DNA of 64,000 bases from a virus: positions 17,480-81,479 of IMG/VR virus record IMGVR_UViG_3300015371_000011. The stretch is one strand, 5' to 3'. Position 1 is the stretch's first letter. Each line of letters begins with the position of its first letter. The position numbers and the translations under genes were made by a program. The notes beneath the pieces are model-generated. The model worked only from the letters and a program-made list of their open reading frames with translations. It did no database searches and was not told the DNA's origin. Positions 1 to 54,815 of the stretch are shown here, piece by piece.

Positions 1-1484
1 TATGGCTTGCTGCTACTGCCACCTTCGCCCCTTGGCTGACTCCCACCAACTTGCCCTGGCCTGCCTTCATGGTCAGGAAATGAATACCGCTTCATGCCCT
101 GCAACTTGACACGCAATTTTTCTGGCAACTCGGCTATGGCCGCGTCACGGTTACGCCGCCACACGTCCATCAAGTACGCCTCCACGGCATTCTGAAACTC
201 GTGGCCCGTATTGACGCGTACCGATTGCGCAAACTCGGCGCTGAGCGGCCCTTGCTGCGCCTGTCTTTCTACGAGTTGCGTGAGCGCATCGCGCGCCGCC
301 GTGATGTAGGTACGCAGCGCTATGCTCAGGCGCACGGCGTCCTTGTTGTAGATGTCCTTGATTTGCTGGAAGTCGGTGCGGGATTCGGCGGCGGAGAATT
401 GTTGTTTAGAATGCCGCGGCGGTGCTTTGATTCGTGGCTGCGGGTCATAGCCCCATTCATGGATTGAATCGCCGTTTGTAAATATGTCACGCGCACTAAC
501 GCGCTTCATCAAGATTCTATACTTGCCATCAAACTGCGAATCTCCATGCTCCTTGGCGTACTCCCTATTGATCGTCACCCAATCGCCAGGATTGATAGCT
601 ATTTTCTGTTTCTCCTGTATCGGCAATGCCTTGAGCCTGTCCATTTCTTTAGAGATAAAATCGTAGTGTGCGCTGCTATTCTTACCGACTTGCTGCACGC
701 CTGGCGGCACCTTGCCATGCTTCAGGATATACGCCTTTTGCTTTTCGTAGTCCGTTATCAATTCTTCATTGGTTAGATTTTTCGGCACGGCGCGATAAAT
801 GGCTACCGTGGCGTTAGGCTTGCCATGCATGCTCTGGATAATCGCAATGGATTGTCTATCCATCGGATTACCGCCGCCGTAGTGGCCGTAATATTCAGCG
901 GCCTTTGGCCCATAAATATCTTCAGGATATGTGTTGGCTAAATCGTGCAGCGGCGAGCCACTATCGCGCATTGGCGCGGTATGTAACCCGCGATAATCTT
1001 CGCCTTCTTTACCTTTGCCCGGCTCGCCCGTTGGTGAGCATGAATTGTCTATGCCACCACCCTCGCCCGTCGGGCAAAACGCATAGCCCTTAACTTCGCG
1101 GTACTTGTCATACAACCTCAGCCCCACGCTGCCCGGCGTCATGTCCAGCGCGCCTAGCCACGGGTCGAGGGCGTCCATGTACGCCTTGCCTTGATTGTGC
1201 GCCGCAAACTCCCAGCTGTGCTCAAGCCGCATGGCCTCGCTGTAAGCCGTCTGTGCATCCACGCCCTGTTGCTCCAGCCACCACTGAAACTTGCGCCGCT
1301 TCTCTTCTAGGTTCGTGAAGTCAAAGCCCATCAGCGCCATGCGGTAGCCGTAGCCCTTGGCCGCGGTGGCGTAGGCGAAGCGCTCAGGCTTCTTCGGCAC
1401 CGCACGCAGTGGACGCTCCCGCTCAAGGCGCAACTGGCTAAGCTGAATCAGGCGGCTTAGAAATTGATTGCTGTCAGTCTGCAC
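1..1484 (-). CDS. MuF/head-morphogenesis-like modular polyprotein (3'-truncated by window edge) with an ADP-ribosyltransferase-like insert
   Basis: Not in the ORF track; hand translation is open from GTG 1484 to the window edge (>490 aa). Lies downstream of the portal. Contains AFCPTGEGGGIDNSCSPTGE, a domain with IYRAVP...INPGDWVT...YAKEHG...GDSIHEWGY, and DHEGRPGQVGGS. Confidence 0.6.
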   Translation of the reverse strand, partial: MQTDSNQFLSRLIQLSQLRLERERPLRAVPKKPERFAYATAAKGYGYRMALMGFDFTNLEEKRRKFQWWLEQQGVDAQTAYSEAMRLEHSWEFAAHNQGKAYMDALDPWLGALDMTPGSVGLRLYDKYREVKGYAFCPTGEGGGIDNSCSPTGEPGKGKEGEDYRGLHTAPMRDSGSPLHDLANTYPEDIYGPKAAEYYGHYGGGNPMDRQSIAIIQSMHGKPNATVAIYRAVPKNLTNEELITDYEKQKAYILKHGKVPPGVQQVGKNSSAHYDFISKEMDRLKALPIQEKQKIAINPGDWVTINREYAKEHGDSQFDGKYRILMKRVSARDIFTNGDSIHEWGYDPQPRIKAPPRHSKQQFSAAESRTDFQQIKDIYNKDAVRLSIALRTYITAARDALTQLVERQAQQGPLSAEFAQSVRVNTGHEFQNAVEAYLMDVWRRNRDAAIAELPEKLRVKLQGMKRYSFPDHEGRPGQVGGSQPRGEGGSSSKP

Positions 1485-1686
1485 GTTTACTGAATTCTTC
1501 TTGCGGTATGATTTCCCGATAGCCTGCTATCGCCTGCTCATCATCATCTCTCAGCCATACCCTATCATGTCCTTCATCAAATCCGTGATAGGCGGGAAAT
1601 ACGCCAAACGTCACACCAGACCAATAATCGTCAGGGTCAAATGTCACACGCACAAAACACTTGCACGTGTGACAAATAACCAGCAT
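1474..1686 (-). CDS. small hypothetical protein with CxxC
   Basis: 70 aa, tightly packed with neighbours. Confidence 0.5.
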   Translation of the reverse strand: MLVICHTCKCFVRVTFDPDDYWSGVTFGVFPAYHGFDEGHDRVWLRDDDEQAIAGYREIIPQEEFSKRAD

Positions 1687-1687
1687 G

Positions 1688-1911
1688 TCACGCCGTGGGC
1701 GTCACGTTGTGCTTATCGCTTAGCCGCTGCAGATTGGCCGTCATGTCGGCGATTGTCTGCGTGGCGTCGGCCTTCTCCTCGTCCGTGCTGGCCGGGTCGT
1801 CCAGTACCGCCTGAGCCGAGACTATAACAGCCTGAAAATGATTAGCCTGTTTTTGCCACTGCGCCCCTGCCTTACCGTGTCCTGCTGGTCATCCATGTCA
1901 TACGGGTTCAC
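1688..1911 (-). pseudogene. small acidic protein interrupted by one frameshift (or a sequence error)
   Basis: GTG 1911 (GTGA overlap) gives MNPYDMDDQQDT; the natural-looking continuation QWQKQANHFQAVIVSAQAVLDDPASTDEEKADATQTIADMTANLQRLSDK..TGA 1688 is in a shifted frame with no start of its own. Confidence 0.4.
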
Positions 1912-2091
1912 GGTTTAATCGTCGTCGAAGTCCCAATCACCTTTGCCGCTTTTCTTGCCGCTGCTCTTCTTATCGCTCTTGGACGAAGGCTTCTCTCGCC
2001 TTTCTTCTTTCTCCTCATCTTCTTCTTCCTCTCGTCGGGGTGTTGTGCCATAAAATCCTCCGGGTTAATGGTTATTATTCTGCGCATCACG

Positions 2092-2391
2092 CTACCACCC
2101 ATGCTTTTCTATTTTCTCTTTTACTTCCAATGCCGTGCCTTCAATGATGATCGGTTTGCCCTTATCCACGGTAATCGTGAGTTTTACGCGGTCGGTATGC
2201 CAAATTGGCGGAACTAAATCATGCGGTGCCACTTGAAACACCGTACCCGAATACGGCGATGTATACGTCTTGCCCTTTATTTTGTAAGTGGACCACACTT
2301 CGCGTGACGGCCAATATTCCGCACGCATCTTTGTCTTGTGCTGCGGCGTGACTTGCACAATCTGCGACACAAGCCGTTTCGGTTTAGCCAC
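2092..2391 (-). CDS. hypothetical protein
   Basis: 99 aa, overlaps portal stop. Confidence 0.6.
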   Translation of the reverse strand: MAKPKRLVSQIVQVTPQHKTKMRAEYWPSREVWSTYKIKGKTYTSPYSGTVFQVAPHDLVPPIWHTDRVKLTITVDKGKPIIIEGTALEVKEKIEKHGW

Positions 2392-3946
2392 GCAAACTCT
2401 CCACGTACTCTATCAACTGCGCCTCTTGCTCCGCACTAAATGATTGCTTATCCGCCGTGGGCTTAGGCGGCTGATTGCCGTTGCCATTGCCGCTAGCCTT
2501 GGGCACCTGTGGCCCTGCACCATTACCATTAGCCGTGGGCTGTCCGAGTGCCATTGGCCCGCCAGCCTTGGCCATCTCTAACTCGTTGTCCATGTTGGCC
2601 TGGTCTATCTCTGCCTGCTGGTCGGTAATCTCTTGCGGTAGCGGCTCGAAATTAATCAAATCGCGCAGCTTGCCCTCGTCCTCTGGGCCCTTGGTGAGCG
2701 CGCCGGCCGATAGGCCCATCAAGAATAACTCGAATTGGCGCTGGCGTGCCTCTTCTGTGACTTCCTTGAATTTAAACAGCGGGTACATGCCGTGCTCAAT
2801 GTCATAATTGAAATCGAGTAGCGGCTTGACTAGCTGCTCGTTGATGACGGTCTCTATATCACGCCGCAGTTGATTCAAGATCCACAGAAACGCGTCAAAC
2901 TCCTTTACCGCACGCGCGAAACTACCCGTCTGTTGCTCGCCGCTTAAACCCATCAATCCAGGCATCATTATGGCCACGCGTATGAGCTGGTCATAATAGT
3001 CCAGCGCGGGCATGAAGGCTTCGCCCGCACGCTGTGGCGGTTGTAATAGCTGCAGCACTATGGCTTCGGGCAGGATGATGCCGCTACGCGTTTGCAAGTT
3101 TTTCAAGAATTGCTCCAGGTCGTAGCGCTGATCGTCGTCAATTATGCCTTTGTATGTGGCTGTGGCTATCGGCTCGGCGTAGCGCTCTAATGCAATCGGC
3201 AGCATGCGCATCACGTTATCCTTGCACCAGTAGGCGCGGTATGCGGCCCTTAAGTCTGATTCGCCGTAATAATTGCCAAATGTGCCGTTATGACTGTAGA
3301 TGATAAACTTCCAGGCCGGCATCTTAACCATGTTTTGCCAGACGCCGTTTTGGGTCAGGTCGCCTGCGCTATCCATCTCGAATTCAATGTCGTCAGGCGG
3401 ACGCGTCTTTAGATCCTTAACGCCCCACATACCCTCAAACGGGCCATAGTCTATCTTCCAATAGACTTGCTCCGTGACCGAGTAGCCGTAGACCATAGCC
3501 GTCATGATGTCTAATAGCTTCGATTCGAAACTACCCTTCATCTCATTAAGGTTGAATTCGGCAAAGTCGGTATATTCATCCACCGCCTTGTCAGTCTCCT
3601 GGTCAGGCAACTCAGGCTTGCGTATCTCATAGCCCGTGCTTAGCACCGCATATTTCTTGGCGTTGAGCGCGGCTTTGACCTGCTCATCTTCAAGGTACAT
3701 TTTGCGATATATGCGGATGCCCTTGCGGTTGGCCAGCTCATCGGGATTGTACGGCGTGGGCGTGAAACTGTTGCGCATGCCGCCGAGCACCGACACGCCG
3801 AAGTAACTCCCCGCGCTCGATACCACGCCCGCCTTGGGCACCGCAGGCTGTGTTGACTGGTACGTGGCTGGCACAGGCGGCGATTTTTGCCGTTTTTGGC
3901 CTGATTTTGCTATTACTTTAGGCTTTGGTTTAGCTCTTTTTGCCAT
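2384..3946 (-). CDS. portal protein (DUF935 / Mu gp29-like)
   Basis: 520 aa after terL; motifs YGYSVTE, KFIIYSH...YYGESDLRAAY, ERYAEP, INEQLVKPLLDFN. Confidence 0.9.
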   Translation of the reverse strand: MAKRAKPKPKVIAKSGQKRQKSPPVPATYQSTQPAVPKAGVVSSAGSYFGVSVLGGMRNSFTPTPYNPDELANRKGIRIYRKMYLEDEQVKAALNAKKYAVLSTGYEIRKPELPDQETDKAVDEYTDFAEFNLNEMKGSFESKLLDIMTAMVYGYSVTEQVYWKIDYGPFEGMWGVKDLKTRPPDDIEFEMDSAGDLTQNGVWQNMVKMPAWKFIIYSHNGTFGNYYGESDLRAAYRAYWCKDNVMRMLPIALERYAEPIATATYKGIIDDDQRYDLEQFLKNLQTRSGIILPEAIVLQLLQPPQRAGEAFMPALDYYDQLIRVAIMMPGLMGLSGEQQTGSFARAVKEFDAFLWILNQLRRDIETVINEQLVKPLLDFNYDIEHGMYPLFKFKEVTEEARQRQFELFLMGLSAGALTKGPEDEGKLRDLINFEPLPQEITDQQAEIDQANMDNELEMAKAGGPMALGQPTANGNGAGPQVPKASGNGNGNQPPKPTADKQSFSAEQEAQLIEYVESLRG

Positions 3947-4002
3947 TTGCGGCTATTTACCTATTGAAACGTGACTTTTGGGTTGTGTATAAGTATAAAT
4001 TA

Positions 4003-4112
4003 GGGTTGCGAACCCAAGGCGGAGCGGTCAGCGGGAGACAGGGGCCGGGCGAACGATAAGCGCCGATTAAATACAGGCCGTCTCATAGGACACTTTGGCC
4101 GCTCCGCCTTTC
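4003..4112 (+). ncRNA. candidate structured small RNA between terL and portal
   Basis: 15-bp stem 4016-4030/4096-4110 with one G-U valid only on +; nested GAGAC/GTCTC, GGCC/GGCC and GGCG/CGCC stems; upstream GTGACT-N17-TATAAA (3971-3999). Confidence 0.4.
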
Positions 4113-4314
4113 ACATCCACTTCTCCTGCCTTTGCATGAACGCATCCTCACTGCCGCATAGCATGATATACTCATCCGCCTCTTGTGAAAACATGAATTT
4201 TGCCACCTGCTTGTCCACGCCGTAGATATTGCCGTTCTCGTCGGGCATCGTGCGGTCAATATAGTCCAGCGCGGATTCAATAAAGCGAAATGAAAAACAG
4301 GATCGGGTCAGCAT
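4111..4314 (-). CDS. hypothetical protein
   Basis: 67 aa, coupled to upstream gene. Confidence 0.5.
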   Translation of the reverse strand: MLTRSCFSFRFIESALDYIDRTMPDENGNIYGVDKQVAKFMFSQEADEYIMLCGSEDAFMQRQEKWM

Positions 4315-4631
4315 GGCAATCCTCTACTCACAAGCCACTGCCGTGCTTCGGTGTGCCGTTTCAACTGCACATCTTTATAACGCTTAGGTGCACACGCATT
4401 TAGCATCTCATATGCTTGCCTAACGACCTCGCGCTCGATTATTTCAAACTCGCTGCCATTAAAGTATTTGGCCAATTCATTACGGTCACGAAACCGATAG
4501 AGCATCTTTTGTGCTAGTTGCCGTATGCGTTCGCTTGTTACGCCGAATTGCTGCCCCACTTCGTCCAGACCGTGACCTTCTAAATAAACCATGCGTAAAA
4601 TGACTAAGCTGCGAGCAAAGAATAAATCCAC
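4308..4631 (-). CDS. sigma-70 region 4-like HTH protein
   Basis: GLDEVGQQFGVTSERIRQL resembles the region 4.2 pattern TLEEVG..FGVTRERIRQI. Confidence 0.7.
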   Translation of the reverse strand: MDLFFARSLVILRMVYLEGHGLDEVGQQFGVTSERIRQLAQKMLYRFRDRNELAKYFNGSEFEIIEREVVRQAYEMLNACAPKRYKDVQLKRHTEARQWLVSRGLPC

Positions 4632-4635
4632 CTGA

Positions 4636-7107
4636 TTACCAATCCGGCCGTAGCCGCTCGCCTACCATGAATATGGCCTTAGTGTTTATTGGCGGCACGC
4701 CAGTCAGCTCGTTGAAGGCGCCCGTGCAGGCGTCTACGATGTCGTCATGGCCGCCGCCTGGAAATAACTGAAACTCATCCAGCGCGTCTTTATTCCAGTG
4801 CGCAGCGAGCATATGGACATTGCCCGCTTCCGCCTGTGACGCTAGTGCGTTGGCTCTGATCTCTTTCGGCCCTGTCACCTTATCACCCTTGAAATCGTAG
4901 CCGGCGAGAAATGACGTATAGTCCGCAATCACCTTAACGCCGCTGTTATGGACAGCAAAATCTTTAACGGTAAAACTATGGCCACCGTCCACCGTTAAAC
5001 ATCGACACGGAAGCGTTTCTCCCTGTTTAACGATTTCAATGATCGGATCGGCTATATGATTCTCAAAAAATCGCTCCCTAGTTTGTGCATGATCCAATAG
5101 CAATCCAGCCTTCTTGCCGTAAACAGGGATTTGTTCGCAGAATCGAGCCTGCCCATCATTGCTCTTTCGTATTTCTAAGCGGTACATCGTCTGACGACGT
5201 TCTCTAAATTGTTTGTCTCGATAAACCCGCTCTCGAATCACAGATGGAATCCCAAATCTCAACAACAAATGACGGACACCGTGAAGCAATGCATAGCTTG
5301 TCCCATAAAACTCAATGCTCAGCCCATTGCCATAATAAATTGAGCCATCGGTAGCGAAATATGCTCCTAAAAAATGCGCTACTAAATCATTCGGCGCATT
5401 GAACACCCATTGCGGGACGACCTTTGTTTCTGTGCGCTTGCCAGCTAAGTCTACATTGCGCAACCAATCACGCACTCCACCTGATAACTTGCAATGCCAA
5501 TGTTGTGAGCCAGCCCATCTTGTTTTAAACCCAAGCACTTCAGCACAATGATTTATGTCTTCTTTAAGAATCATATCTGAGCAGGTAATCATCGCGTGAA
5601 TAGATGAGCCGTCAGCTACATAAGTGCAGCATCCGTCGCCAACAAAATATCCAGCTAAGCGAAACTCCTCGGCGATACGAGATGATACACCCTGAATTTC
5701 TGGCCGTGACGTTAATCCAAGACTCTGTCCGACTTTTAACAATCCCGCTTTGATCCAGCCGGTTGGCGTAAGAAATGGATGCTCCAATGCTGCCGTCACC
5801 GAGCGACCACTTTCTGTCTTAATGGTGACAACAGTTAATTCGCCCTGTTCATGCACTTTGGAGACAATTCGCCTCTGACCGTACCCATCAATGATAGAAT
5901 CATTAACGCGAATTTCTTTTAACGGCTTGATTGAGCCGTCCGCCATTAAAACTTCCTCTTCTTCCCAAATAGGCGAACCCGGTTCTTGCTCCATGCGGAT
6001 AGCCACATTACCGTAATTCTGTCGGTCAGTCTGCGCCGTCTGCATAATGAGTTGATCGACTTTATGCGGGCTGATTCTTTGGCGCTGAATGTCGGCTATG
6101 AAATACTCCCTGCCATACTGGCCCACAAGCGCACCCACGGTATAGTCAGGGTCGTTACCTTCTTTCGGCTCCGTTGCGGCACAATCCCAATACCGTACGA
6201 ATCGCACGCCTTGGACGGGCAGCACCTGCGCAATCTTAAACCAATGGCGCATAAACTTACCCGCCGCCTGTGCCTCCCAGTCGCCATTCATCACTTGCGC
6301 ACGCAGTATCGGGTCAAGGTGGCTCAGGCTGGATTCATACTCTGCAACATTAGCGGTGGGATTGTCGCGGATGCTGGCGGGAATAAATACTGGCGCGTTA
6401 GGATCGCCACGACGGTACGGATCAACGAAATGCTCTTTGGTCCACAGCCGTCCTTCGCCTATTGGGTTTGATGCCGAGCGCACACGGAGCGGTAGCGGAT
6501 TGCCTTCGCTTTTACGTAGCCAACCAAACGGGAATTCATATTGCTGCTTTTTGAACTGAGTAACCTCATCAAACGCTACGTATGTCCAGTTGACGCCCGT
6601 ATACTGATATTTGTCTCTATCAGTATCCATAAAACCAAACGTCACCGTGGCACCACTGGGAAACTCATAGCGATTCTTTTCATCTTTCCACTTGGCGTCG
6701 GTATCGCTCAGCCACTTATGTGCAAGGTCCAGTATGGCTTCAGGCTTATTTAACTCCTTGAATGTGCGCCGAATGATAAGCGCGTTGTAATTCGGCTGGT
6801 CAGCAAACTGTAACGCAGCCGCGAGCAGCGCCCAGCTTTTGCCCCCGAATCCTGCCCCGCCATAGAAGGCTTCCTTACAATCGAGCTTTAGAAACTCTTC
6901 CTGCTTAGGAAACGGCGTCATCTTGATGTACTTATTCAACCGCGGCTTCAGTTGGCCATCTGCCGTCAATATGCACGTCGGCGGGATGAGCGGCAGCCAT
7001 GGCTCTAGCACCGCCTTCTTGGCATCCTCTGCGCTCTTGAAGCGTGCAGCAAAGTCGCGGCTTACTGCGGCCCAGTCTATTTGCTCAGCGGTCAAACCCA
7101 TGCGCAC
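4636..7107 (-). CDS. terL: terminase large subunit with intein
   Basis: Walker A YGGAGFGGKS, Walker B VAFDEVTQF, coupling motif SASNP, nuclease RYWDCAAT...DYTVG and HDDIVDA; likely ATG at 7101. Confidence 0.95.
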   Translation of the reverse strand: MRMGLTAEQIDWAAVSRDFAARFKSAEDAKKAVLEPWLPLIPPTCILTADGQLKPRLNKYIKMTPFPKQEEFLKLDCKEAFYGGAGFGGKSWALLAAALQFADQPNYNALIIRRTFKELNKPEAILDLAHKWLSDTDAKWKDEKNRYEFPSGATVTFGFMDTDRDKYQYTGVNWTYVAFDEVTQFKKQQYEFPFGWLRKSEGNPLPLRVRSASNPIGEGRLWTKEHFVDPYRRGDPNAPVFIPASIRDNPTANVAEYESSLSHLDPILRAQVMNGDWEAQAAGKFMRHWFKIAQVLPVQGVRFVRYWDCAATEPKEGNDPDYTVGALVGQYGREYFIADIQRQRISPHKVDQLIMQTAQTDRQNYGNVAIRMEQEPGSPIWEEEEVLMADGSIKPLKEIRVNDSIIDGYGQRRIVSKVHEQGELTVVTIKTESGRSVTAALEHPFLTPTGWIKAGLLKVGQSLGLTSRPEIQGVSSRIAEEFRLAGYFVGDGCCTYVADGSSIHAMITCSDMILKEDINHCAEVLGFKTRWAGSQHWHCKLSGGVRDWLRNVDLAGKRTETKVVPQWVFNAPNDLVAHFLGAYFATDGSIYYGNGLSIEFYGTSYALLHGVRHLLLRFGIPSVIRERVYRDKQFRERRQTMYRLEIRKSNDGQARFCEQIPVYGKKAGLLLDHAQTRERFFENHIADPIIEIVKQGETLPCRCLTVDGGHSFTVKDFAVHNSGVKVIADYTSFLAGYDFKGDKVTGPKEIRANALASQAEAGNVHMLAAHWNKDALDEFQLFPGGGHDDIVDACTGAFNELTGVPPINTKAIFMVGERLRPDW
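4945..5973 (-). mobile_element. 343-aa intein with LAGLIDADG endonuclease in TerL (Pro1, class-3-like)
   Basis: Removal restores EQEPGS|SGVKV; starts PIWEEEEVLMADG, ends PCRCLTVDGGHSFTVKDFAVHN; LAGYFVGDG and FLGAYFATDG motifs. Confidence 0.9.
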
Positions 7108-7482
7108 AACTCAAATACTGCAATAGATCAGCAATGTTATGCTTGCCTGACTCGCAAAAATGACAGGATACCTGCGCTTCCAAGTCATCTGATAACGTCA
7201 AAATCTTACCATCCTTAACCGAGCCCTCTTTATTGACCTCACCAAAAATCAACCCTACACCCTTGAAATCACCCGTACACCGACACGCCTCATATGCACG
7301 CATACCGTTATAAGCCACTCTCATGTGTCCTAACTCTTTGCCGAAACATTGCGTTACGGTCCAGAAAATACCATCGCGCCCGCCGTCCGGCTTCCAAAAC
7401 TGAAACAATGTATTTCGTGGAGCGATGTGCTGGTTTTTAATCGCAGCATCTAAAATCCCACCATTTATTTGCTCAGCGGTCA
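7078..7482. repeat. 17-bp direct repeat TATTTGCTCAGCGGTCA at 7078-7094 and 7466-7482
   Basis: exact match read from the sequence. Confidence 0.85.
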
Positions 7483-7501
7483 GAGTCATCAGTCGGCCCA
7501 T
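7085..7501 (-). CDS. hypothetical protein
   Basis: 138 aa; N-terminus MTLTAEQI duplicates the TerL N-terminus MGLTAEQI. Confidence 0.6.
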   Translation of the reverse strand: MGRLMTLTAEQINGGILDAAIKNQHIAPRNTLFQFWKPDGGRDGIFWTVTQCFGKELGHMRVAYNGMRAYEACRCTGDFKGVGLIFGEVNKEGSVKDGKILTLSDDLEAQVSCHFCESGKHNIADLLQYLSCAHGFDR

Positions 7502-8835
7502 GCTAATAGCGGCGCATCGTCATAGCAGCGTTTGTAAGCCATCTGGCAATACTCGATTTTAAGTTCTAGCCCAATACCAAACCGCCCCAGCTTATCCGCT
7601 ACTAGCGCCGTGGTGCCCGCGCCGGAGAATGGGTCGAGCACTATGCAGGGCGTTATTGGCGCGTCGTGCGTGCATGTGGGCTGCCAGCCGAGGGTCGTGG
7701 ATTGATATGCAATATTTCTTTGCATGTCTGAATAATTCCCATGTGCCGACCCGTTAGGATTAAACGGCGTAGTAGAACGCCGGCCGTCATATGTTGTCTG
7801 TTGACGCTCCGTCACCCTCTCCCACGGCGCACCGCACACGCTACACGCGCCCTTCTCGCTCGTGCCCGCCTTGATGCAGCGCTCGGCTATGGCCTCGGGA
7901 AATGTGGCAAAGTGCGCTTCGGGATAGGGCTGCGTGGCTATTTCCCAGACGGTTCTAATATTTCTGCCTGCTTCATTCGGTAACGGATAAGGACCACGAT
8001 GGTTATTACCTTGATGTATTCGGCGGGCTTCTGATTCTGCGTGATTTATATTTGCCATCGTGCCGCCATTATTTTCGTCCCACAACCTAGCATGCGGCTC
8101 CCGTACCGCATCCTGATCGAAGTAATATCTTTCATTTTTAGTGAGCAGGAAAATGTATTCGTGCGCCTTGGTGGGCCTGTCCGTCACGCTCTCCGGCATG
8201 GGATTGGGCTTTGACCAGATAATATCGCTGCGCAGATACCATCCATCGGCTTGCAGGGCGAAGGCAACGCGCCAGGGGATGCCAACGAGATCCTTGGGCT
8301 TGAGGCTCCAATTTTCAAATGATTGCTGTACCACCGTATTGCCAATGTGAGATTTGCGGCTTTCTAATTTAGTACCGACGAAGCCGTTATGTGGCTGCGT
8401 GACATTACGCGGTTTTCCTTGTCGGGTAAAATGATGTGTCGCCATTGAATCGCCTAGGTTGCACCACACCGTACCATCGTCGCGCAGCACACGCTTCACT
8501 TCCCGAAATACCGCCACCATGCGCTCGACGTATTCTTCAGGCGATTTTTCCAATCCCAACTGGCGGTCGATGCGCGTTGCGCCGCATGAACAAACAGCCG
8601 CTGGTAAATCCCTTGGGAAAGCGTTCTCAGTTTGCTTGCCGGGTGCACCTGATCCACCGCGCCCATTACGATGGGCAACGCGGTCGTGCGCGTGAGTTTC
8701 ATCGCCGCCCGACCATGACGCCGTACCGTAATCCCTCAGCCCCCAGTACGGCGGGCTCGTCACCACGCACTGAACGCTGTTGTCCTTGAGCGGTAGCGGA
8801 TTAGTGACATCAGCCTGTAATATTTGCCAACTCAT
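7489..8835 (-). CDS. N6/N4 DNA methyltransferase (beta class) with Cys-rich inserts
   Basis: TSPPYWGLRDY, WSKPNPMPESVTDR, HFATFP, DPFSGAGTT. Confidence 0.92.
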   Translation of the reverse strand: MSWQILQADVTNPLPLKDNSVQCVVTSPPYWGLRDYGTASWSGGDETHAHDRVAHRNGRGGSGAPGKQTENAFPRDLPAAVCSCGATRIDRQLGLEKSPEEYVERMVAVFREVKRVLRDDGTVWCNLGDSMATHHFTRQGKPRNVTQPHNGFVGTKLESRKSHIGNTVVQQSFENWSLKPKDLVGIPWRVAFALQADGWYLRSDIIWSKPNPMPESVTDRPTKAHEYIFLLTKNERYYFDQDAVREPHARLWDENNGGTMANINHAESEARRIHQGNNHRGPYPLPNEAGRNIRTVWEIATQPYPEAHFATFPEAIAERCIKAGTSEKGACSVCGAPWERVTERQQTTYDGRRSTTPFNPNGSAHGNYSDMQRNIAYQSTTLGWQPTCTHDAPITPCIVLDPFSGAGTTALVADKLGRFGIGLELKIEYCQMAYKRCYDDAPLLAWAD

Positions 8836-9332: not shown

Positions 9333-9337
9333 CGCCG

Positions 9338-42648: not shown

Positions 42649-42650
42649 CT

Positions 42651-44745: not shown

Positions 44746-44748
44746 TTT

Positions 44749-46487: not shown

Positions 46488-46493
46488 TCATGT

Positions 46494-49400: not shown

Positions 49401-49736
49401 ATCAATAAGCCTCTGTACGGGTATATTTTTGCCGAGTACCTGAAGCGTGCTGCCAAGAGTCGCGCTTTCCTGTTGAAACTGCCCAGCAAGCGCAATGCCT
49501 TTTTCAAAGTGGGCAAGCGTCGGCTCGAATATCCTGTTGAGTAATTCAAGGCCCTGATTGAGCACCACGACGGCGGCGCCAGCCTTGCTCCATGTGCTGG
49601 TAAGTGCGTCGGTGGCCTCGCTGGTTTTCTTGGTTTGCGACTCAATGCCAGCAAGGCGCTTCTCTATGTCGGCAAGCTGCGATGAAGCCTGATCGACGCT
49701 CTTTATGAGTACTTCTATAAGATTGGATTCGGCCAT
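46494..49736 (-). CDS. tape measure protein
   Basis: 1080 aa, helical and Ala/Gln-rich, IEVLIKSVDQAS N-terminus, follows the chaperones. Confidence 0.88.
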   Translation of the reverse strand: MAESNLIEVLIKSVDQASSQLADIEKRLAGIESQTKKTSEATDALTSTWSKAGAAVVVLNQGLELLNRIFEPTLAHFEKGIALAGQFQQESATLGSTLQVLGKNIPVQRLIDFSEEMAKANGVSSESVLAAEKQLVSLTKLNEQGIKKVIEGSLALSKVTDIDFGTAIRRSIALLQGNTTQIMRGIDAINQHIPLVEREAALQQYLSTFIEANTKSTDTYQRTQRVLNNAIEDFHKALGAGIIEQLQAINPQLTKYVDYATEIVKANPILVRGIYDVAKALDELKGVLVALAALQMTGVLGFLGRLIANPAALAALGTVALIAAGAFAILNKEFEKSANIDAGKNFDDAGARIKVLTERLTALKAKQQESLKNLIDPRIKGDIEETQAAIDELLAKRRSLTIRGEVDTGPTSHEAAPPAAALSKEEEETRRIIEKVQADIIKGRADAQASFEQFLFETTGDFNAQARAFAATQAGIAAAAKASVDQQMKALLEQNTFDAGQQARIRGALMAQATLQIQASQLQQRKAAYDAEQQAIKLNLSLQQSISEQIGAQASAEERRLGVLKDQGATIAEQAAQESIIFEFQRDKQDKVVATLEAEKTRLETLKVSGNLEKQRLIDLQNIENQLIKEKDTRDAINDAITKGDRDRLNAAIARSVTSRTGFIEAASQADQARLDALKDQLDILKEQQRPYGEILSVTTQIDAIERSQVLNAIKKKELELEILRAKTGTEAATQGELEAGEAELERLRKSLTVTGIGGRKLAADLHQQAQQMATDVAGSFVDTFVQFISNSDAKLRDVFESLGKTVMAEFMRAAIATLLAKPFEAILKDWATNAPNTGEMFTKFGFGGGGFGAILDLLGVGKNKRPAGVEGPLMESGQFFSDTSQAVEKGITSIDKSLTEGLGGLLDKAAGGFGDFFGSLAKLVSSMLEGITKMFSSEGGGGGFGIFRSILGIFSSVAGAASAGSNFTYSMPTTGSPSFPTVTPYTPPSFSTSNYAVPQSFLQPFQQTAAPARAATATAGATQTATMQQQQPVSVVVNGDITPRQPGMTPDQVIKVVYNDMDRGGMTSKATVNVLKRNR

Positions 49737-50402
49737 CAGTGCATGGATTCCCGCTCTATAATCAGCGCATCTTCAGCCGCACGGGCGCGCCGCGCCAAGG
49801 CCAGTGCTTCGCGCCGATTAGAGGTAAACCCTGTTTGTGGATTGTATTTCTGCTCGGCCTCATCGCGTGCCTTTATCTCGGCCGCCATGCCGAGCAGCAT
49901 TACGTTATAGTCGAAGGCGAGCGCATCGTAGCCGTTGTCAAACGGCTCAGGCAGTAGGCTCGATGGCCTCTGGCCGTACCGGCGTGCCATCAAGTCCATT
50001 ATCTCCGGTCCCTGCCTGCTGGAAAAAAAAATTCTCAAGTTGCGACATTGCCATGCCGTATGAATACTTCATTATTTCGGTCGCCAGTACGTCAAGGTCG
50101 CTACCTAAATCAAGGTGGTAAATCTGGTCAGCTGGGCACTCGGACTCTTCGCCAAACCAGACTTTAGGGCTAATCGTGCCCTTGCTGATATAAAACCTAA
50201 GTGCCTTATTCTCGGCCTCAGGATCACTCTTGGCCTTCTCCATATACTGCGAGATGACGTCCTGCGTAGCCTCGGCCATCGGCAAGGCCAGTCCGCCTAG
50301 CTCAGACAGGAAGTCTTTGAAACGCACGCGGCGTATTGTGAATGTCTGCCCTGAGAAGGGCACCATGATTTCTTTGCTAAACTTGGTTTTGTCTATGTCC
50401 AT
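49736..50402 (-). CDS. tail assembly chaperone pair (G 49947-50402; T 49736-50038) linked by a T9 slippery tract
   Basis: GAG AAT TTT TTT TTC (50023-50031); overlapping downstream ORF directly before the tape measure. Confidence 0.75.
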
Positions 50403-51210
50403 TTACATCTCCCGCAGTAATGCCCAGCGCGTAGCAATAGGGCACGGTTACAATCGGCGGCATGGCACGCTTAAATACGCAATTCTCGCCGTCCAGCACC
50501 ACGCACGAGTCATAGCCGCGCTGATACAGCCACTGAACCACCATCGCGCGTGAATAACCGCGCAACTGCAAGCCAATATTCAACTCAACAATCAGCCACG
50601 GATCGAATCGTGCCAGTGTCTTTTCGGCGCCCTGCAGCACGTCGAAATCAAACGAGTCCACGTCGATTTTAAGCAGATCAAGTTTGTCTATCCCTTTGGC
50701 GTCCACGAATTCGTCCAGCGTGGTGAAATCATACTCCATCTCGTCAGGCACCAGCGGGTCGGCCCATAGCCGATACACTTTCTCCACCCTGCGGCCCGAC
50801 GTAGCGCCTAGCGCGATTCTCTCTATCTGGACATTGCGGCAGTTATTGTACGCCAGGTTTGTCTCCAGCATGTCGGCCGTAGACGTTGGCTCAATCGCCC
50901 ACACCTTGCCTTGCGGCGATAGCTGGCTGAATAAAATCGAGTAGTAGCCGATGTGCGCGCCACAGTCGATATATACCCAGTCATCAGCTTTCCATGTGAA
51001 TAGCGGACCACCCGCTATCTGCGTAAACCAGTAACGCGTCATCAACTCGCAGTTGGGATAATACGACTCAAACTCCTTGTAATACTCAGGCAGCACAATG
51101 TCCGCGCGGCCTGGTATATGGATGGAGAGATAGTCCGCTGATTGTGATAATTTAGCTGAAGCGGATCTCGACATCATCGTCCCCGGTCGTTTCGTAACAA
51201 CTGTACCCAA
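50377..51210 (-). CDS. FkbM-family methyltransferase
   Basis: IDCGAHIGYYS, AIEP, TTLDEF, LLKIDVDSFDFDVLQGA. Confidence 0.85.
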   Translation of the reverse strand: MGTVVTKRPGTMMSRSASAKLSQSADYLSIHIPGRADIVLPEYYKEFESYYPNCELMTRYWFTQIAGGPLFTWKADDWVYIDCGAHIGYYSILFSQLSPQGKVWAIEPTSTADMLETNLAYNNCRNVQIERIALGATSGRRVEKVYRLWADPLVPDEMEYDFTTLDEFVDAKGIDKLDLLKIDVDSFDFDVLQGAEKTLARFDPWLIVELNIGLQLRGYSRAMVVQWLYQRGYDSCVVLDGENCVFKRAMPPIVTVPYCYALGITAGDVNGHRQNQV

Positions 51211-52144
51211 CCCCGAACGTCGCCAATCCGCTCTTGTCTTGGCGCGCCAAAGTCTTGAATACGGCTTGCGACGCCACGATGCTAAAGCACTCGCCCTGTG
51301 CTACGCCCGCCTGCGCATACAGCAAAGCCCCTGAGCTTGAGCGCCATACATTAACCCAGTCAAAACTACCCGCGTTAGTCGCTTCAGGATCGACACTACC
51401 ACCCGGTTGCCGCTCCGTAATGAGACACTTGATGATACCGCTACCCGACAACGCGTTAGATGCGCGCTGCTCGAAGATACGGTTGCCCGTATTCAAATTG
51501 AGATTTTCAATGACGGCGGTTAGAGATTGCACAAACACGCTACCACTACCTACCCAGCGTGCAGGCGTAGCCGTGGGCAAGCCGACTGGCGTACCGCGTA
51601 CCGTGCTGGCCTCGGTTGAGAGTTGGCCTCTAAAATTGAATTCGGCAATAAACGGCGTTGCCGCCACACCCACGAAATTCACATTGCCCATTGCGCCGAC
51701 GATTCGGTGCTCGTAACCGTCAATGTGCGCCACGAATGTCTGACTGCATTGGCTTTGCACGCGGGATAACGGCTTATATGAATACCCTGGCCGTCCATTA
51801 CCAGGCATGGATGTTACAAAGGTCTCTGACATGCCGCAGGCGCGTAGTAAGCCGCCTAAAGGCGGTTTTACCGTGGCGCTATATGAGCCGTTGACGCCCT
51901 GCACGAATGTCTTGAATGAAATGCCGACGGGCCGCACAGTGCCGAATGGCCGGCTAAAGCCCAGCGTACTTAAGCCACCCGTTTGTTCTAGTACTTCTTG
52001 ACCTAAGTCTAATGCGAATGGCTCAATCATTCTTATAGCCTGATACGAATTGGCTTCTTGCGGCGCGGCATCAATACCATAAGAAGATTCTACAGCGGAT
52101 AATAAACACTGACGGCGGTTTAATGCGACATCTAAGCCGGGCAT
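51152..52144 (-). CDS. major tail tube protein
   Basis: VESSYGIDAAP, LLRACGMSET; position between terminator and chaperones. Confidence 0.75.
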   Translation of the reverse strand: MPGLDVALNRRQCLLSAVESSYGIDAAPQEANSYQAIRMIEPFALDLGQEVLEQTGGLSTLGFSRPFGTVRPVGISFKTFVQGVNGSYSATVKPPLGGLLRACGMSETFVTSMPGNGRPGYSYKPLSRVQSQCSQTFVAHIDGYEHRIVGAMGNVNFVGVAATPFIAEFNFRGQLSTEASTVRGTPVGLPTATPARWVGSGSVFVQSLTAVIENLNLNTGNRIFEQRASNALSGSGIIKCLITERQPGGSVDPEATNAGSFDWVNVWRSSSGALLYAQAGVAQGECFSIVASQAVFKTLARQDKSGLATFGVGYSCYETTGDDDVEIRFS

Positions 52145-52148
52145 AGGC

Positions 52149-53000
52149 GTGGACCTACCTTTCTTTTTGTGCTACAGATGCTTCATGCCAAAAGGAACAG
52201 ATTTGACGAGTGATCAAAGACTTGAAATCGTCAAACTTTACCAAAGTGGCACGCCCGTTAAGGACATCATTCATCAACTGAATTTGCACGTTAATACCAT
52301 TTACAGACAGCTTCGTCGGGCAAACATTCATGGAGCACAGCAACATCCAAAACCATTTGATGCAGCTATTTTTGACCCTGCACAAGAATCAGGTGCATAC
52401 TGGATTGGATTTTTCACGGCCGATGGGCACATTGATAAAAGCGGACAATTCCGATTAAAGCTAAGCCTCAACGACATTGAACATCTCCAAGCCTTTGTAA
52501 AATTTATCGGTATAGATCGAAAAATAGATACTGGAGTGTCGCCCGCACGACCTGGATTCTGTGCTGAAACTTCGTATTGTCGAATTTGGTTTAGCAACCA
52601 CGCGTTGAAAGACGCGTTTTTCTCTCTTGGAATCGCGCGACTCAAGACCGATAGAAACCCTGTTAGAATGCTCGCTGAAAACCGCCACTTCTGGCGTGGC
52701 GTTATTGATGCCGACGGTTGGCTTGGAGATACTGGACCGACTGCGCCTCGAATAACTTTGACGAGCACCGAGACAATTTGTAATGGGTTGCTTACCTTTG
52801 CCGAAAGTCATTTTACCGAATTGAAATCGCTCACACGGTTTAAAGGCACTGGCGCCTATCAGGTTGGACAGAAACAAAACCACCGAGTCGAGTTTGTGTT
52901 GCAGAAAGCCCATAAGCTAATTGACGTCCTTTATGCCGATTCCCACGTTTACCTACCCCGTAAGAAACTCATTGCCGACCGAATACTTGCTGCAAAATAG
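52149..53000 (+). CDS. free-standing LAGLIDADG homing endonuclease with N-terminal HTH
   Basis: YWIGFFTADG and FWRGVIDADG, LPRK. Confidence 0.9.
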   Translation: MDLPFFLCYRCFMPKGTDLTSDQRLEIVKLYQSGTPVKDIIHQLNLHVNTIYRQLRRANIHGAQQHPKPFDAAIFDPAQESGAYWIGFFTADGHIDKSGQFRLKLSLNDIEHLQAFVKFIGIDRKIDTGVSPARPGFCAETSYCRIWFSNHALKDAFFSLGIARLKTDRNPVRMLAENRHFWRGVIDADGWLGDTGPTAPRITLTSTETICNGLLTFAESHFTELKSLTRFKGTGAYQVGQKQNHRVEFVLQKAHKLIDVLYADSHVYLPRKKLIADRILAAK

Positions 53001-53018
53001 CACAAAGCTGAAAAATAG

Positions 53019-53486
53019 TCATTTACCAATACCGCTATAAATCACATATTCCGCCGTGATTGAGTGATAGCCCACATAGCCGTTATCCGACTCAGGACGG
53101 CGCACAGTCCAGATGACGCCCGCCTGCCCTAGCCCTACGCCCGTACCCAAGTCCGTCCAGTCGCGCACGAAATCGAGCAGGTGGCCGCCTAAGAAAAATA
53201 GCGCCTCATCCATGCGCTGCTTCGACTCGGCGTCATAGATCCACAATGTGAAAACCACCCGCGCCGTCAATGCCCGTGTCTGCAGGCTGTACGCGCCAGA
53301 GCCGCGCGCCAAGTCCTCCCACGGCGACTCGACGTAATATTCAATGGCGGGCATGGCGCTCATCGGTATTGGGTCGTCGGTGTCGTAAATAATGTTTTTC
53401 ACATCGGCAAAGCGCTCATCGTTGCGCAGCTTCTCGCCGATGGGGACTAAGAGCAGTTCATACACATTTATAGTGGGTTGATTCAC
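53019..53486 (-). CDS. tail terminator/completion protein
   Basis: size and synteny. Confidence 0.6.
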   Translation of the reverse strand: MNQPTINVYELLLVPIGEKLRNDERFADVKNIIYDTDDPIPMSAMPAIEYYVESPWEDLARGSGAYSLQTRALTARVVFTLWIYDAESKQRMDEALFFLGGHLLDFVRDWTDLGTGVGLGQAGVIWTVRRPESDNGYVGYHSITAEYVIYSGIGK

Positions 53487-54100
53487 GCCGCCTCACGTCC
53501 TTGCAGGTAAATCAGCCCAGCCCTCAGTAAATCACGCATCAGTATCGGATCATTCTGTGTCGGCAACATGCGACGCCGCGGCACTCCAGGATGGTGGACA
53601 ACCTGCGCATGCACGTAATCGCCCTTCACCTTGATCATTTCGAGCACACGGCCTGACTTTAGCAGCTTTGTTTTCACGCCCTGCGATACGGCCACCTTGA
53701 ATGCCAATGTGCCGCCCGGCTTGGCGTGAATCTCATACGGCCCGGTGCCTAGCTCGTGATAGACGGCATATTGCAGGCCGCTGCCCACGCTCGCCTGCAC
53801 AGAATTCCAGCGCGGTATGAAGGAGCCGCGTAAGCGCCCTGTGTCCATTAGCGGCTTGCCTGTGCCGCTACGGCGATTGGCCAGCGTATTAGGACTAAGT
53901 GGTTTCCAGCCGCCGACCATGCCGCCTTCGGTAGTGAAATTCTTGTTGATCCAATTCAATGCGAGTATGGCCCAGCGTGCGTGCAGGTCGGTACGCGTTT
54001 GAATCTTGCGCGTGAGCCGCTCCATGATGCGCTGCATATCGCGCATGCCGCGTAATTCGACTTTAAGGCTAATGTCGTTTGCCAAGGACATACTCCCCAA
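53483..54100 (-). CDS. virion morphogenesis protein (Mu gpG-like tail completion)
   Basis: WKPLSPNT..R..LMDTGRLRGS..VGS..YAVYHELG..P.R. Confidence 0.85.
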   Translation of the reverse strand: MGSMSLANDISLKVELRGMRDMQRIMERLTRKIQTRTDLHARWAILALNWINKNFTTEGGMVGGWKPLSPNTLANRRSGTGKPLMDTGRLRGSFIPRWNSVQASVGSGLQYAVYHELGTGPYEIHAKPGGTLAFKVAVSQGVKTKLLKSGRVLEMIKVKGDYVHAQVVHHPGVPRRRMLPTQNDPILMRDLLRAGLIYLQGREAA

Positions 54101-54275
54101 TACGAAAAGCCATTACAGAAAGCGGCACATCAAATTTATCAGCTAATTGTCGCAGTCCTTTATCGTCAGCTAAATCTGGTAAGAATTTTTCCCGCGCAAG
54201 AAATTCATCAGGCACAAGCAAATGCATGGCAAAATAATTTGCTTCGACGTTTTTAGGGTCTATCTTGTTAGGCAT
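54069..54275 (-). CDS. ImmA/IrrE-like C-terminal fragment
   Basis: EANYFAMHLLVP..LADKFDV; no HExxH. Confidence 0.6.
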   Translation of the reverse strand: MPNKIDPKNVEANYFAMHLLVPDEFLAREKFLPDLADDKGLRQLADKFDVPLSVMAFRIGEYVLGKRH

Positions 54276-54815
54276 TTAGTGTTTACCTGCCAACCATTCC
54301 GCATAATCAAGACCAGTTTTAGTCAACGTATCGCCTGTTAAATATGAGCCATCGGGACTCGTTAAACGCCGCTCGCCGCCTTGTGATGTGACAACTTTGG
54401 CACCTTTGCCCACTAACTCTTCAATAATTGCGCTTCGTTTTGCCACGCCGCCATGCCAACCAAGATTTTTATCTAGTGCTGCTCTCATTTTACCTGCATT
54501 CATTGGCGACATGGTTTTCAAAAAATCATCGGCTTGTGTCTTGGTCGGCACTGGCTGATTTTCTCTGTTTCTTTTGTCACGTAGGCGCTGCTGGACATTG
54601 CGCCTATCGCCTTCTATCCAGTAAGGGTTATTCATGCGTTGTCCTTGCGGGACTTGTTTCATTGCGTTGTATAAATCTTCATCCGACATATCGCGCGGGC
54701 TATGCTCGCCCGTTGGACTACACGAATTATCTATTCCGCCGCCTTCGCCAGTAGGACAGAAAGCATGATCCTTCAGGCTGGCATATTCGTTGGCAAAGAA
54801 TCTAAGTAAACTCAT
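54276..54815 (-). CDS. hypothetical protein with N-terminal AFCPTGEGGGIDNSCSPTGE tag
   Basis: ATGA-coupled start at 54815; motif at 54705-54764. Confidence 0.7.
   Translation of the reverse strand: MSLLRFFANEYASLKDHAFCPTGEGGGIDNSCSPTGEHSPRDMSDEDLYNAMKQVPQGQRMNNPYWIEGDRRNVQQRLRDKRNRENQPVPTKTQADDFLKTMSPMNAGKMRAALDKNLGWHGGVAKRSAIIEELVGKGAKVVTSQGGERRLTSPDGSYLTGDTLTKTGLDYAEWLAGKH

What the first reader, a model, noticed from the sequence alone, without database searches (positions are those of the whole stretch)
1023..54764. Identical 20-aa peptide in two unrelated proteins 54 kb apart: candidate capsid-loading tag
Seen: AFCPTGEGGGIDNSCSPTGE occurs at 1023-1082 in the post-portal polyprotein and at 54705-54764 near the N-terminus of a stand-alone neck-region protein. 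The amino acids are 20/20 identical, yet 13 of 20 codons differ synonymously (including Ser TCA vs AGT), which points to selection on the peptide and not recent DNA duplication. Flanking sequences are unrelated, and each copy is followed by a different compact domain. A second Gly-rich motif (FPDHEGRPGQVGGS) appears further along the polyprotein at the window edge. Inference: a portable address label, possibly a Cys-Cys loop, that routes cargo proteins into the head for co-ejection, giving a modular effector-delivery system.
Basis: partly seen in the sequence, partly recalled or inferred. Interest (0 to 1): 0.85.

Follow-up and report, generated by a model that had tools for sequence, protein, structure and literature searches.

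The report
Cysteine-loop junction tag on phage cargo
The identical 20-residue peptide is real and is one copy of a widespread, apparently unpublished two-cysteine "junction" that uncultured phages place in front of swappable enzyme modules on head proteins. It probably marks proteins that are loaded into the capsid, cut loose and injected, but that role has not been shown.

Summary
Observation confirmed, on the minus strand. AFCPTGEGGGIDNSCSPTGE occurs at 1023-1082 in an 838-aa MuF polyvalent protein and at 54705-54764 in a 179-aa protein. 13 of 20 codons differ.

The shared unit is longer, 34 aa: an amphipathic helix plus the loop. Its core is [R/N/Y]-[A/G/V]-F-C-P-T-G-x-G-G-G-[I/V]-D-[N/P]-[S/T]-C, followed by a Gly/Ser linker.

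- **Spread:** at least 119 IMG/VR stretches and 1,533 protein clusters, with up to 10 copies per protein.
- **Position:** it sits between domains, joining portal, prohead-protease and MuF carriers to effector modules, or it heads stand-alone genes after a 10-50-aa leader.
- **Swapping:** a close relative carries other cargo in the same neck slot. "FPDHEGRPGQVGGS" is a decayed, cysteine-free junction at an orthologous position.
- **Structure:** AlphaFold2 predicts the loop as disordered in both contexts tried.

Best reading: a load-and-release junction for capsid cargo. The lineage-specific helix and flank would serve docking or protease cutting. The role of the invariant loop is unknown.

"Portable tag" is supported. 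"Address label" and virion presence are untested.

I found no paper, Pfam family or PDB chain for it. Earlier agents of this scan noted the same tag in at least 8 other genomes.

The parts
1023..1082 (-). Copy A of the 20-aa core (AF-C-PTGEGGGIDNS-C-SPTGE), residues 135-154 of the MuF polyvalent protein
1023..1121 (-). Full shared junction unit in the polyprotein (residues 122-154): upstream helix-like flank LRLYDKYREVKGY plus the loop
   Evidence: BLASTP 24/34 identical to residues 4-37 of the small protein, E 8e-14
1..1484 (-). 5' part (494 of 838 codons) of the post-portal MuF polyvalent protein. It runs off the window; the whole gene is L001:16447-18963(-). Order of parts: N-terminal region, junction, ParB-like module, decayed junction, a module beginning GWHGT, MuF domain (residues 729-806).
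   Evidence: (Phage_Mu_F, 39.3 bits)
393..998 (-). Cargo module behind copy A: ParB-C-like domain (phrog_2579, E 2e-37), about residues 163-364
39..80 (-). Decayed, cysteine-free junction FPDHEGRPGQVGGS (residues 469-482). Relatives have a canonical Cys loop at this aligned position, and the downstream modules differ in all three phages.
   Evidence: not recognised by the family profile
54276..54815 (-). Stand-alone tagged protein (179 aa): leader helix, loop, then an orphan mainly helical cargo domain. Its ATG overlaps the stop of the upstream gene (ATGA).
   Evidence: no Pfam, PHROG, PDB or Atlas match for the cargo
54765..54815 (-). Conserved N-terminal leader MSLLRFFANEYASLKDH, a predicted helix (residues 3-17). 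It is shared by 8 database proteins and 2 proteins of relative L241 that carry unrelated cargo.
54705..54764 (-). Copy B of the 20-aa core, residues 18-37 of the small protein
54069..54275 (-). 68-aa ORF starting right after, and in frame with, the TAA stop of the tagged protein. It matches the C-terminal third of Peptidase_M78 (IrrE/ImmA). It may belong to the same cargo slot.
54812..55639 (-). Upstream neighbour, weakly Mu gp36-like (below Pfam's cut-off). It is 96% identical in relative L241 and forms the left edge of the variable cargo slot.
53483..54100 (-). Tail-completion/Neck1 gene, 92% identical in L241; right edge of the cargo slot. L241 has a second leader-loop-cargo gene inserted after it; the window has none there.
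2384..3946 (-). Mu-type portal, directly upstream of the polyprotein. In relatives L099 and L245 the portal itself carries a loop plus an extra module of about 85 aa.

Best explanation
The peptide is the core of a modular junction unit of phage head-cargo proteins: a short amphipathic helix, then F-C-P-T-G-x-G-G-G-(I/V)-D-(N/P)-(S/T)-C, then a Gly/Ser/Pro-rich flexible linker, then a variable effector domain.

In this 81-kb circular phage the unit heads two cargo modules. One is the ParB-like module inside the MuF polyvalent protein next to the portal. The other is a stand-alone gene in a variable 'cargo slot' of the neck module.

Most likely mechanism (inferred, not shown): the unit lets a protein be taken into the procapsid and then cut free for co-injection with the DNA. 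The lineage-specific helix and the residues at -3 to -1 would be the docking and/or head-protease cutting part. The near-invariant two-cysteine, glycine-rich loop would stay at the new N-terminus of each released module and does a job that is still unknown.

Shown: the anatomy, spread, position at junctions, link to head carriers, module swapping and peptide-level selection. Inferred: packaging, cleavage and injection.
For: A profile finds 1,533 clusters at E<=1e-3, with up to 10 copies per protein. Among 559 profile-found instances both Cys are at least 98.7% conserved.
2. **Junction position.** Copies lie 108-450 aa apart and Pfam domains lie between them.
3. **Head carriers.** Of 87 non-redundant carriers, 15 are portals, 10 S78 proteases and 10 MuF, plus effector domains. 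Examples: portal-loop-ART, MuF-loop-sigma70-loop, S78-helix-loop-module.
4. **The loop heads modules.** It lies within 60 aa of the upstream stop in 20 of 97 ORFs, but within 60 aa of the downstream stop in only 1.
5. **Swapping at the junction.** Relative L241 (neck genes 77-99% identical) has a ParB_N-like cargo in the window's slot. It also has an extra leader-loop gene whose cargo is 41% identical to a module of the window's polyprotein. The aligned junction in the polyproteins of the window, L244 and L247 is followed by three different modules.
6. **Peptide-level selection.** 13 of 20 codons differ in the window. Copies within one locus are more alike at 16 free positions (0.51 vs 0.32; 0 of 500 permutations reach this), yet 49% of their identical-residue codons differ synonymously.
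7. **Flank tracks head lineage.** R at -3 goes with S78 proteases (34 of 54 loci, against 0 of 41 N-type loci). N-type loci have portal_3, MuF and DUF2213. The window clade has Y/H/F at -3, a Mu portal and another protease.
8. **Natural C-termini.** S78 polyproteins end in ...LRFLKDRR*, which is the upstream helix stopping exactly at -3.
9. **Disorder.** The helix is predicted, while the loop and linker are predicted disordered in both contexts, as expected for a linear motif read by a partner.
Against: - There is no experimental datum: no virion proteome, no mapped N-terminus and no cultured phage with the tag. tblastn against 50,697 phage records found none, although its low-complexity filter may hide the loop.
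- Head-protease cutting sites are normally short and poorly conserved, so a 13-residue near-invariant loop with two cysteines is not explained by cutting.
- The major capsid protein of an S78 phage with a delta domain carries no loop, and no capsid family appears among loop carriers. The head protease therefore does not need the loop.
- The link between flank and protease type is lineage-confounded and could be common descent.
- No single protease or receptor family was found in all loop-bearing loci. The papain-like peptidase near the window's polyprotein is absent from almost all of them.
- The decayed junction shows the loop can be lost without loss of the gene.
Confidence: 0.5

Rival explanations
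1. Pure address label. The loop itself binds a conserved pocket inside the procapsid (capsid protein, scaffold, portal or MuF) and no cutting is involved. Several copies in one polyprotein would simply add avidity.
For: - A short conserved peptide, a flexible linker and diverse cargo is the layout of T4 and P1 capsid-targeting sequences (PMC9024508) and of encapsulin cargo peptides (my own knowledge).
- Stand-alone leader-loop-cargo genes are common: 20 of 97 ORFs.
- Copies within one locus are kept alike.
Against: - Portals and proteases, which are built into the procapsid anyway, also carry the loop, always at the joint to an extra module.
- The loop is almost identical across phages whose portals, capsid proteins and proteases belong to different families. 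That is hard to square with a protein-protein interface.
- An effector fused to a portal ring would need release.
Confidence: 0.2
2. Like-binds-like hook. Two loops share a metal ion or a disulfide through their four cysteines, so a stand-alone tagged protein rides into the head on the loop of the MuF polyprotein, portal or protease.
For: - There are two near-invariant cysteines and no other obvious ligands.
- This genome has exactly one carrier copy and one stand-alone copy, and they are 20/20 identical.
- Copies within one locus are kept alike.
Against: - Copy numbers per protein show no preference for even numbers: 1 copy in 101 ORFs, 2 in 37, 3 in 10, 4 in 1, 5 in 2, 6 in 1.
- It gives no reason for the loop to sit at every junction and never at a C-terminus.
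- No solved structure contains such a motif.
- The cytoplasm is reducing.
Confidence: 0.1
3. The loop acts chemically on its own, or only after injection. It could be a self-cleaving element, a redox- or metal-triggered switch, or a site read by a conserved host factor, that frees or activates each module in the infected cell.
For: - Near-invariance across very different phages points to chemistry or a universally conserved partner.
- No phage-encoded partner common to all loci was found.
Against: - It has none of the residues of known self-processing motifs: no His or Asn as in inteins/HINT, and no N-P-T-H, G-S or H-F-S type site. This is from direct reading of the logo plus my own knowledge of those motifs.
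- 13 residues predicted as disordered are unlikely to fold into a catalytic unit.
Confidence: 0.1
4. A functionless linker or recombination scar. The sequence is merely where module-shuffling recombination happens and is carried along by descent.
For: Module swaps occur exactly at the junction.
Against: - Recombination would need DNA identity, but the copies differ at 49-60% of synonymous codons while the peptide stays fixed.
- Eight positions are 92-100% conserved over 559 instances.
- The strict orientation, with the loop always heading a module, argues for a protein function.
Confidence: 0.05

Closest known systems
Phage-type polyvalent proteins and MuF-fused effectors (Iyer, Burroughs, Anand, de Souza, Aravind 2017, PMC5512222)
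   Same: Multidomain proteins encoded next to the portal. They carry a MuF domain, ParB-like, ADP-ribosyltransferase, 2H phosphoesterase and similar domains, and are proposed to be packed in the head and injected. The window's 838-aa protein fits this description.
   Different: A term search of that paper's full text found 'linker', 'glycine' and 'cysteines' zero times, so it appears not to describe a conserved inter-domain peptide. Its proposed processing enzyme, a zincin-like peptidase domain in the same polypeptide, was not found here or in the five giant loop-bearing proteins scanned. The tag also occurs on single-cargo stand-alone proteins.
Capsid targeting sequences of T4 internal proteins (Mullaney and Black 1996, as cited in PMC9024508) and of P1 DarB (PMC9024508)
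   Same: A short N-terminal peptide on otherwise unrelated proteins that is sufficient for loading into the capsid. In T4 it is removed by the prohead protease, and the cargo is anti-restriction or host-directed. The leader-loop-cargo genes have this layout.
   Different: No sequence likeness was noted; I made no direct comparison with the T4 or P1 signals. Those signals are specific to one phage. This element is near-invariant over more than 1,500 protein clusters, also occurs internally at every junction of polyproteins and on portals and proteases, and has two conserved cysteines. Loading and cutting are untested here.
C-terminal capsid-targeting tail of the HK97 maturation protease (Duda, Oh, Hendrix 2013, J Mol Biol; from memory, not read here) and encapsulin cargo-loading peptides
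   Same: A short peptide plus flexible linker that carries a protein into an HK97-fold shell. S78 proteases of loop-bearing phages have the helix and loop right after the protease domain, and some end in the helix alone.
   Different: Those peptides are C-terminal. Here the loop always precedes a module. Binding to a capsid protein has not been tested.

Membership tests
Phage-type polyvalent protein (Iyer et al. 2017) | Two or more unrelated effector or enzyme domains in one polypeptide of a phage or conjugative element | tested here: met
   The 838-aa protein has a ParB-C-like module (phrog_2579, E 1e-36), a further module and Phage_Mu_F at 729-806. The 179-aa protein has one cargo module only and so is not itself polyvalent.
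Phage-type polyvalent protein (Iyer et al. 2017) | Virion-associated domain (MuF) and position in the head-gene block | tested here: met
   Gene order is terminase, portal, this protein, then the prohead protease, scaffold and capsid protein.
Phage-type polyvalent protein (Iyer et al. 2017) | Processing peptidase domain (zincin-like MPTase) in the same polypeptide; frequent, not obligatory | tested here: not met
   No peptidase family hit in the polyprotein or in five giant loop-bearing proteins.
Capsid targeting sequence (T4 IPIII / P1 DarB type) | Short N-terminal peptide shared by otherwise unrelated proteins of one phage group | tested here: met
   The leader plus loop is shared by the small protein, 8 database proteins and 2 proteins of L241, with no likeness after residue 41 or so.
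Capsid targeting sequence (T4 IPIII / P1 DarB type) | The peptide is sufficient to load a foreign protein into capsids | not testable with these tools
   Needs a reporter packaging assay.
Capsid targeting sequence (T4 IPIII / P1 DarB type) | Removal by the prohead protease at a defined site | tested here: inconclusive
   The residue at -3 tracks the protease lineage and some S78 polyproteins end exactly at -3. However, this is confounded by descent and no cut has been mapped.
Intein / HINT-type self-processing element | Nucleophilic Cys at the junction, plus T-x-x-H and terminal H-N blocks, within a fold of 130 aa or more | tested here: not met
   There are only 13 residues between the cysteines, no conserved His or Asn, and the stretch is predicted disordered.
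Structural metal-binding knuckle or hook | Conserved Cys pair that binds a metal, alone or paired with a second copy | not testable with these tools
   Both Cys are at least 98.7% conserved. No similar motif occurs in any PDB chain. Metal content is unknown.

The most novel reading that the evidence does not exclude
The near-invariant two-cysteine, glycine-rich loop is a self-contained chemical device, for instance a metal- or redox-dependent latch or cutting point. Together with a short helix it would suffice to load any protein into an HK97-fold capsid and release it on infection. That would make it a universal 35-aa tag used by thousands of uncultured phages, and one that could be reused for phage-borne protein delivery.
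Probability: 0.15. Interest if true: 0.9.

Novelty: new variant of a known kind. Interest (0 to 1): 0.68.

Why it matters
How phages select, pack and release the proteins they inject with their DNA is known in detail for only a few model phages, and there the signals are phage-specific. How the large polyvalent effector proteins predicted in 2017 are handled is still open.

A single short element shared by more than 1,500 protein clusters, sitting at each joint between head carriers and anti-host enzymes, would make that question testable with one reporter assay. It would also give a simple sequence flag for finding capsid cargo, and thus new counter-defence enzymes, in metagenomes. It might further provide a portable tag for delivering proteins with phage particles.

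In this genome it also shows how cargo is exchanged. The same helix-loop-linker-domain cassette moves between the MuF polyprotein and insertion slots between well-conserved neck genes.

Tried and rejected
- **Recent duplication or gene conversion:** rejected by synonymous divergence.
- **One larger shared domain:** rejected; only 34 aa align.
- **Chance:** rejected by the control scan of bacterial genomes.
- **Papain-like C1 peptidase as the junction protease.** It lies two genes after the polyprotein (L001:15000-15770). It is common in metagenomes but absent from the other loop-bearing loci except L244, so it is not a general partner.
- **Zincin-like peptidase of polyvalent proteins:** not found.
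- **Loop docked on the S78 protease:** AlphaFold2 leaves it disordered. Only pLDDT and secondary structure are returned, so contacts could not be read.
- **Identity of the small protein's cargo:** no hit in Pfam, PHROGs, PDB sequences, Foldseek or the ESM Atlas.
- **The module beginning GWHGT as an ADP-ribosyltransferase:** not detected by Pfam or BLASTP, so not claimed.
- **Cultured phages with the tag:** tblastn found none. The phage has no close cultured relative.
- **Solved structures with the motif:** none at E<=10.
- **Literature:** no hit for 12 motif strings in full text. The polyvalent-protein paper's text holds no occurrence of 'linker', 'glycine' or 'cysteines'.
- **The look-up of encoding contigs:** Context of relatives came from the search for related loci instead.
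- **'FPDHEGRPGQVGGS':** the family profile does not recognise it. Its status as a decayed junction rests on the alignment with relatives.

Full report
**1. The observation**

Read on the minus strand, window 1023-1082 and 54705-54764 both give AFCPTGEGGGIDNSCSPTGE. The plus strand gives stops. 13 of 20 codons and 15 of 60 bases differ, all synonymously, including Ser TCA vs AGT.

Copy A is residues 135-154 of an ORF that runs off the window. Taken from the whole genome, that ORF is an 838-aa protein with a Phage_Mu_F domain at 729-806.

Copy B lies in a small ORF. Its likely start is ATG 54815, which overlaps the stop of the upstream gene as ATGA. This gives a 179-aa protein with the peptide at residues 18-37.

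BLASTP of the two proteins aligns 34 residues at 71% identity and nothing else of note. The shared unit thus includes about 14 residues upstream of the identical stretch.

A family profile finds exactly these two copies in the genome.

**2. The setting**

- The genome is one 81,479-bp contig whose last 123 bases repeat its first 123, so it is a circular phage genome.
- The genes examined all lie on the minus strand. Their order is: terminase (with an intein), Mu-type portal, the MuF protein, a papain-like peptidase, a head protease, scaffold, capsid protein. After about 18 kb come a weakly Mu gp36-like gene, the small tagged protein, a 68-aa ORF and a tail-completion/Neck1 gene.
- The phage has no close cultured relative.

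**3. What the peptide belongs to**

The eight database relatives of the small protein share only its first 37-41 residues (MSLLRFFANEY..AFCPTGEGGGIDNSCSPTGE). After that they have unrelated sequences.

These hold 225 in-frame instances, with up to 6 instances in one reading frame and up to 7 per stretch.

*Conservation at free positions.* Positions the pattern left free are conserved: F at -1, R or N at -3, a small residue at -2, P at +1, V/I at +8, N/P at +10, S/T at +11 and G/S at +13. A Gly/Ser/Lys-rich stretch follows.

*Control.* The same pattern in 596 billion bases of bacterial and archaeal genomes gave almost only out-of-frame noise. Just 5 instances of about 120 looked real, and the three whose record titles were shown came from metagenome bins.

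*Profile search.* A 38-position profile found 1,533 clusters at E<=1e-3 among 1.84 billion representatives, with up to 10 copies per protein. In 559 profile-found instances:

| Position | Conserved in |
|---|---|
| first Cys | 559 |
| Thr | 537 |
| the four Gly | 529-557 |
| Asp | 514 |
| second Cys | 552 |
| Phe at -1 | 520 |

**4. Where it sits**

- Copies in one protein lie 108-450 aa apart, and Pfam domains lie between them.
- Of 87 non-redundant carriers, 15 are portal proteins, 10 are S78 prohead proteases and 10 carry MuF. Others carry ADP-ribosyltransferases, sigma-70, topoisomerase IB, zeta toxin, pentapeptide repeats, Acb1 and more.
- Worked examples:
  - portal, then loop, then ART-PolyVal;
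  - MuF, loop, sigma factor, loop;
  - S78 domain, a helix of about 35 aa, loop, Gly-rich linker, extra module.
- The loop lies within 60 aa of the upstream stop in 20 of 97 ORFs, but within 60 aa of the downstream stop in only one. It therefore heads modules, needs only a short leader before it, and does not end proteins.

**5. Module swapping**

Locus L241 is a close relative; its neck and tail genes are 77-99% identical.

- Between the same two neighbours (96% and 92% identical) it has a leader-loop gene with a ParB_N-like cargo instead of the window's cargo.
- After the tail-completion gene it has a second leader-loop gene that the window lacks. Its cargo is 41% identical to a module of the window's MuF polyprotein.

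Within the polyprotein, the domain before 'FPDHEGRPGQVGGS' lies in a protein that is 61% identical overall to relative L244. At the aligned position L244 and L247 have a canonical loop, the window has a same-length cysteine-free remnant, and the three downstream modules are all different.

**6. Selection**

- Copies within one locus are more alike at the 16 positions not fixed by the pattern: 0.51 against 0.32 between loci, with 0 of 500 label shuffles reaching this.
- Yet 49% of their identical-residue codons differ synonymously, against 60% between loci.
- The copies are thus old and are kept alike at the peptide level. This suggests a partner that co-evolves within each lineage.

**7. Clues to mechanism**

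*Flank and head lineage.* The flank changes with the head lineage while the loop does not.
- Loci with R at -3 carry this S78 protease type in 34 of 54 cases; loci with N at -3 do so in 0 of 41.
- N-type loci instead show portal_3, MuF, DUF2213 and DUF6260.
- The window's clade has Y, H or F at -3, a Mu-type portal and a protease that Pfam does not place.
- This agrees with the idea, taken as a lead from earlier notes of this scan, that the flank is the cutting site of the phage's own head protease. It could also be shared descent.

*Natural C-termini.* Some S78 polyproteins end in ...LRFLKDRR*. That is the junction's upstream helix stopping exactly at -3. Seven C-termini score above the 99.9th percentile against 0.9 expected, but most of them are homologous S78 polyproteins rather than independent cases.

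*Structure prediction.* AlphaFold2 predicts the leader as a helix and the loop as disordered, both in the small protein (pLDDT below 50 for residues 18-40) and behind an S78 protease (pLDDT 26-46).

*Against a plain protease site.* The capsid protein of an S78 phage with a delta domain has no loop, no capsid family appears among carriers, and a 13-residue near-invariant loop with two cysteines is far more than a cutting site needs.

No protease or receptor common to all loci was found.

**8. Reading**

The best-supported account is a load-and-release junction for proteins carried in the capsid. The helix and flank would be the lineage-specific part, for docking and/or cutting. The loop would be a universal part of unknown chemistry.

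'Address label', 'Cys-Cys loop' and 'present in virions' remain untested.

**9. What is known**

- The overall idea of multidomain, MuF-linked effectors packed in the head and injected is published (PMC5512222). A term search of that paper found 'linker', 'glycine' and 'cysteines' zero times.
- N-terminal capsid-targeting sequences are known for T4 and for P1 DarB (PMC9024508).
- I found the motif in no paper, in no Pfam family and in no PDB chain.
- Earlier agents of this scan noted the same 'cysteine-loop junction tag' in at least eight other genomes and reached a similar reading. Those notes are leads, not independent evidence.

**10. New in this window**

- A minimal two-copy case with one carrier and one stand-alone gene.
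- A conserved stand-alone leader.
- Variable cargo slots between highly conserved neck genes.
- A decayed junction.
- The head/tail asymmetry of the loop.
- The helix-only C-termini.

Noticed in passing
window 4636-7107 (-): The large terminase carries an intein: LAGLIDADG_3 at residues 575-660, plus Intein_splicing and Hom_end Hint hits between the ATPase and nuclease domains.
   Followed up: no
window 54069-54275 (-): A 68-aa ORF begins with ATG directly after, and in frame with, the TAA stop of the tagged protein. It matches only the last third of Peptidase_M78 (IrrE/ImmA; 25.8 bits, profile positions 74-122 of 123). No HExxH lies upstream. It could be a split or remnant cargo.
   Followed up: partly
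L001:15000-15770 (-), outside the window, two genes after the MuF protein: A papain-like (C1) cysteine peptidase sits inside the head-gene block. More than 300 metagenomic clusters are 56-72% identical to it, and some are named papain-like protease. Its role is unknown, and it is not linked to the tag in other loci.
   Followed up: partly
window about 2384-2425 (-): The portal's C-terminus ...EAQLIEYVESLRG* resembles the leader helix ...FANEYASLKDH. In relative L245 the portal continues with a Cys-rich stretch, a loop and an extra module of about 85 aa.
   Followed up: partly
L011, L019, L024, L035, L060, L102 (S78 protease ORFs): These protease polyproteins end in ...LRFLK(D/E)RR*, the same helix that precedes their internal loops, cut off exactly at position -3.
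   Followed up: partly
L001:5402-8551 (-), next to the capsid gene: A 1,049-aa fusion of glycosyltransferase 4, methyltransferase and glycosyltransferase 2 domains lies in the structural block. It might modify virion proteins.
   Followed up: no
L001:13628-14272 (-): A 214-aa ORF between the peptidase and the head protease starts with a signal-peptide-like MKRLLFVLAFIMWASVASAQ, which is unusual inside a head module.
   Followed up: no
window 54432-54494 and polyprotein residues 498-518: There is a weak likeness (11 of 21 identical, E 0.06) between GWHGGVAKRSAIIEELVGKG in the small protein's cargo and GWHGTLASRLPDIIKEGVVTG at the start of the polyprotein's third module. It may be chance.
   Followed up: no
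L016:12-2489 (-), residues 571-579: A portal-loop-ART protein has a second, partial IHCPTGKVG about 70 aa before its ART-PolyVal domain. This may be another decayed junction.
   Followed up: no
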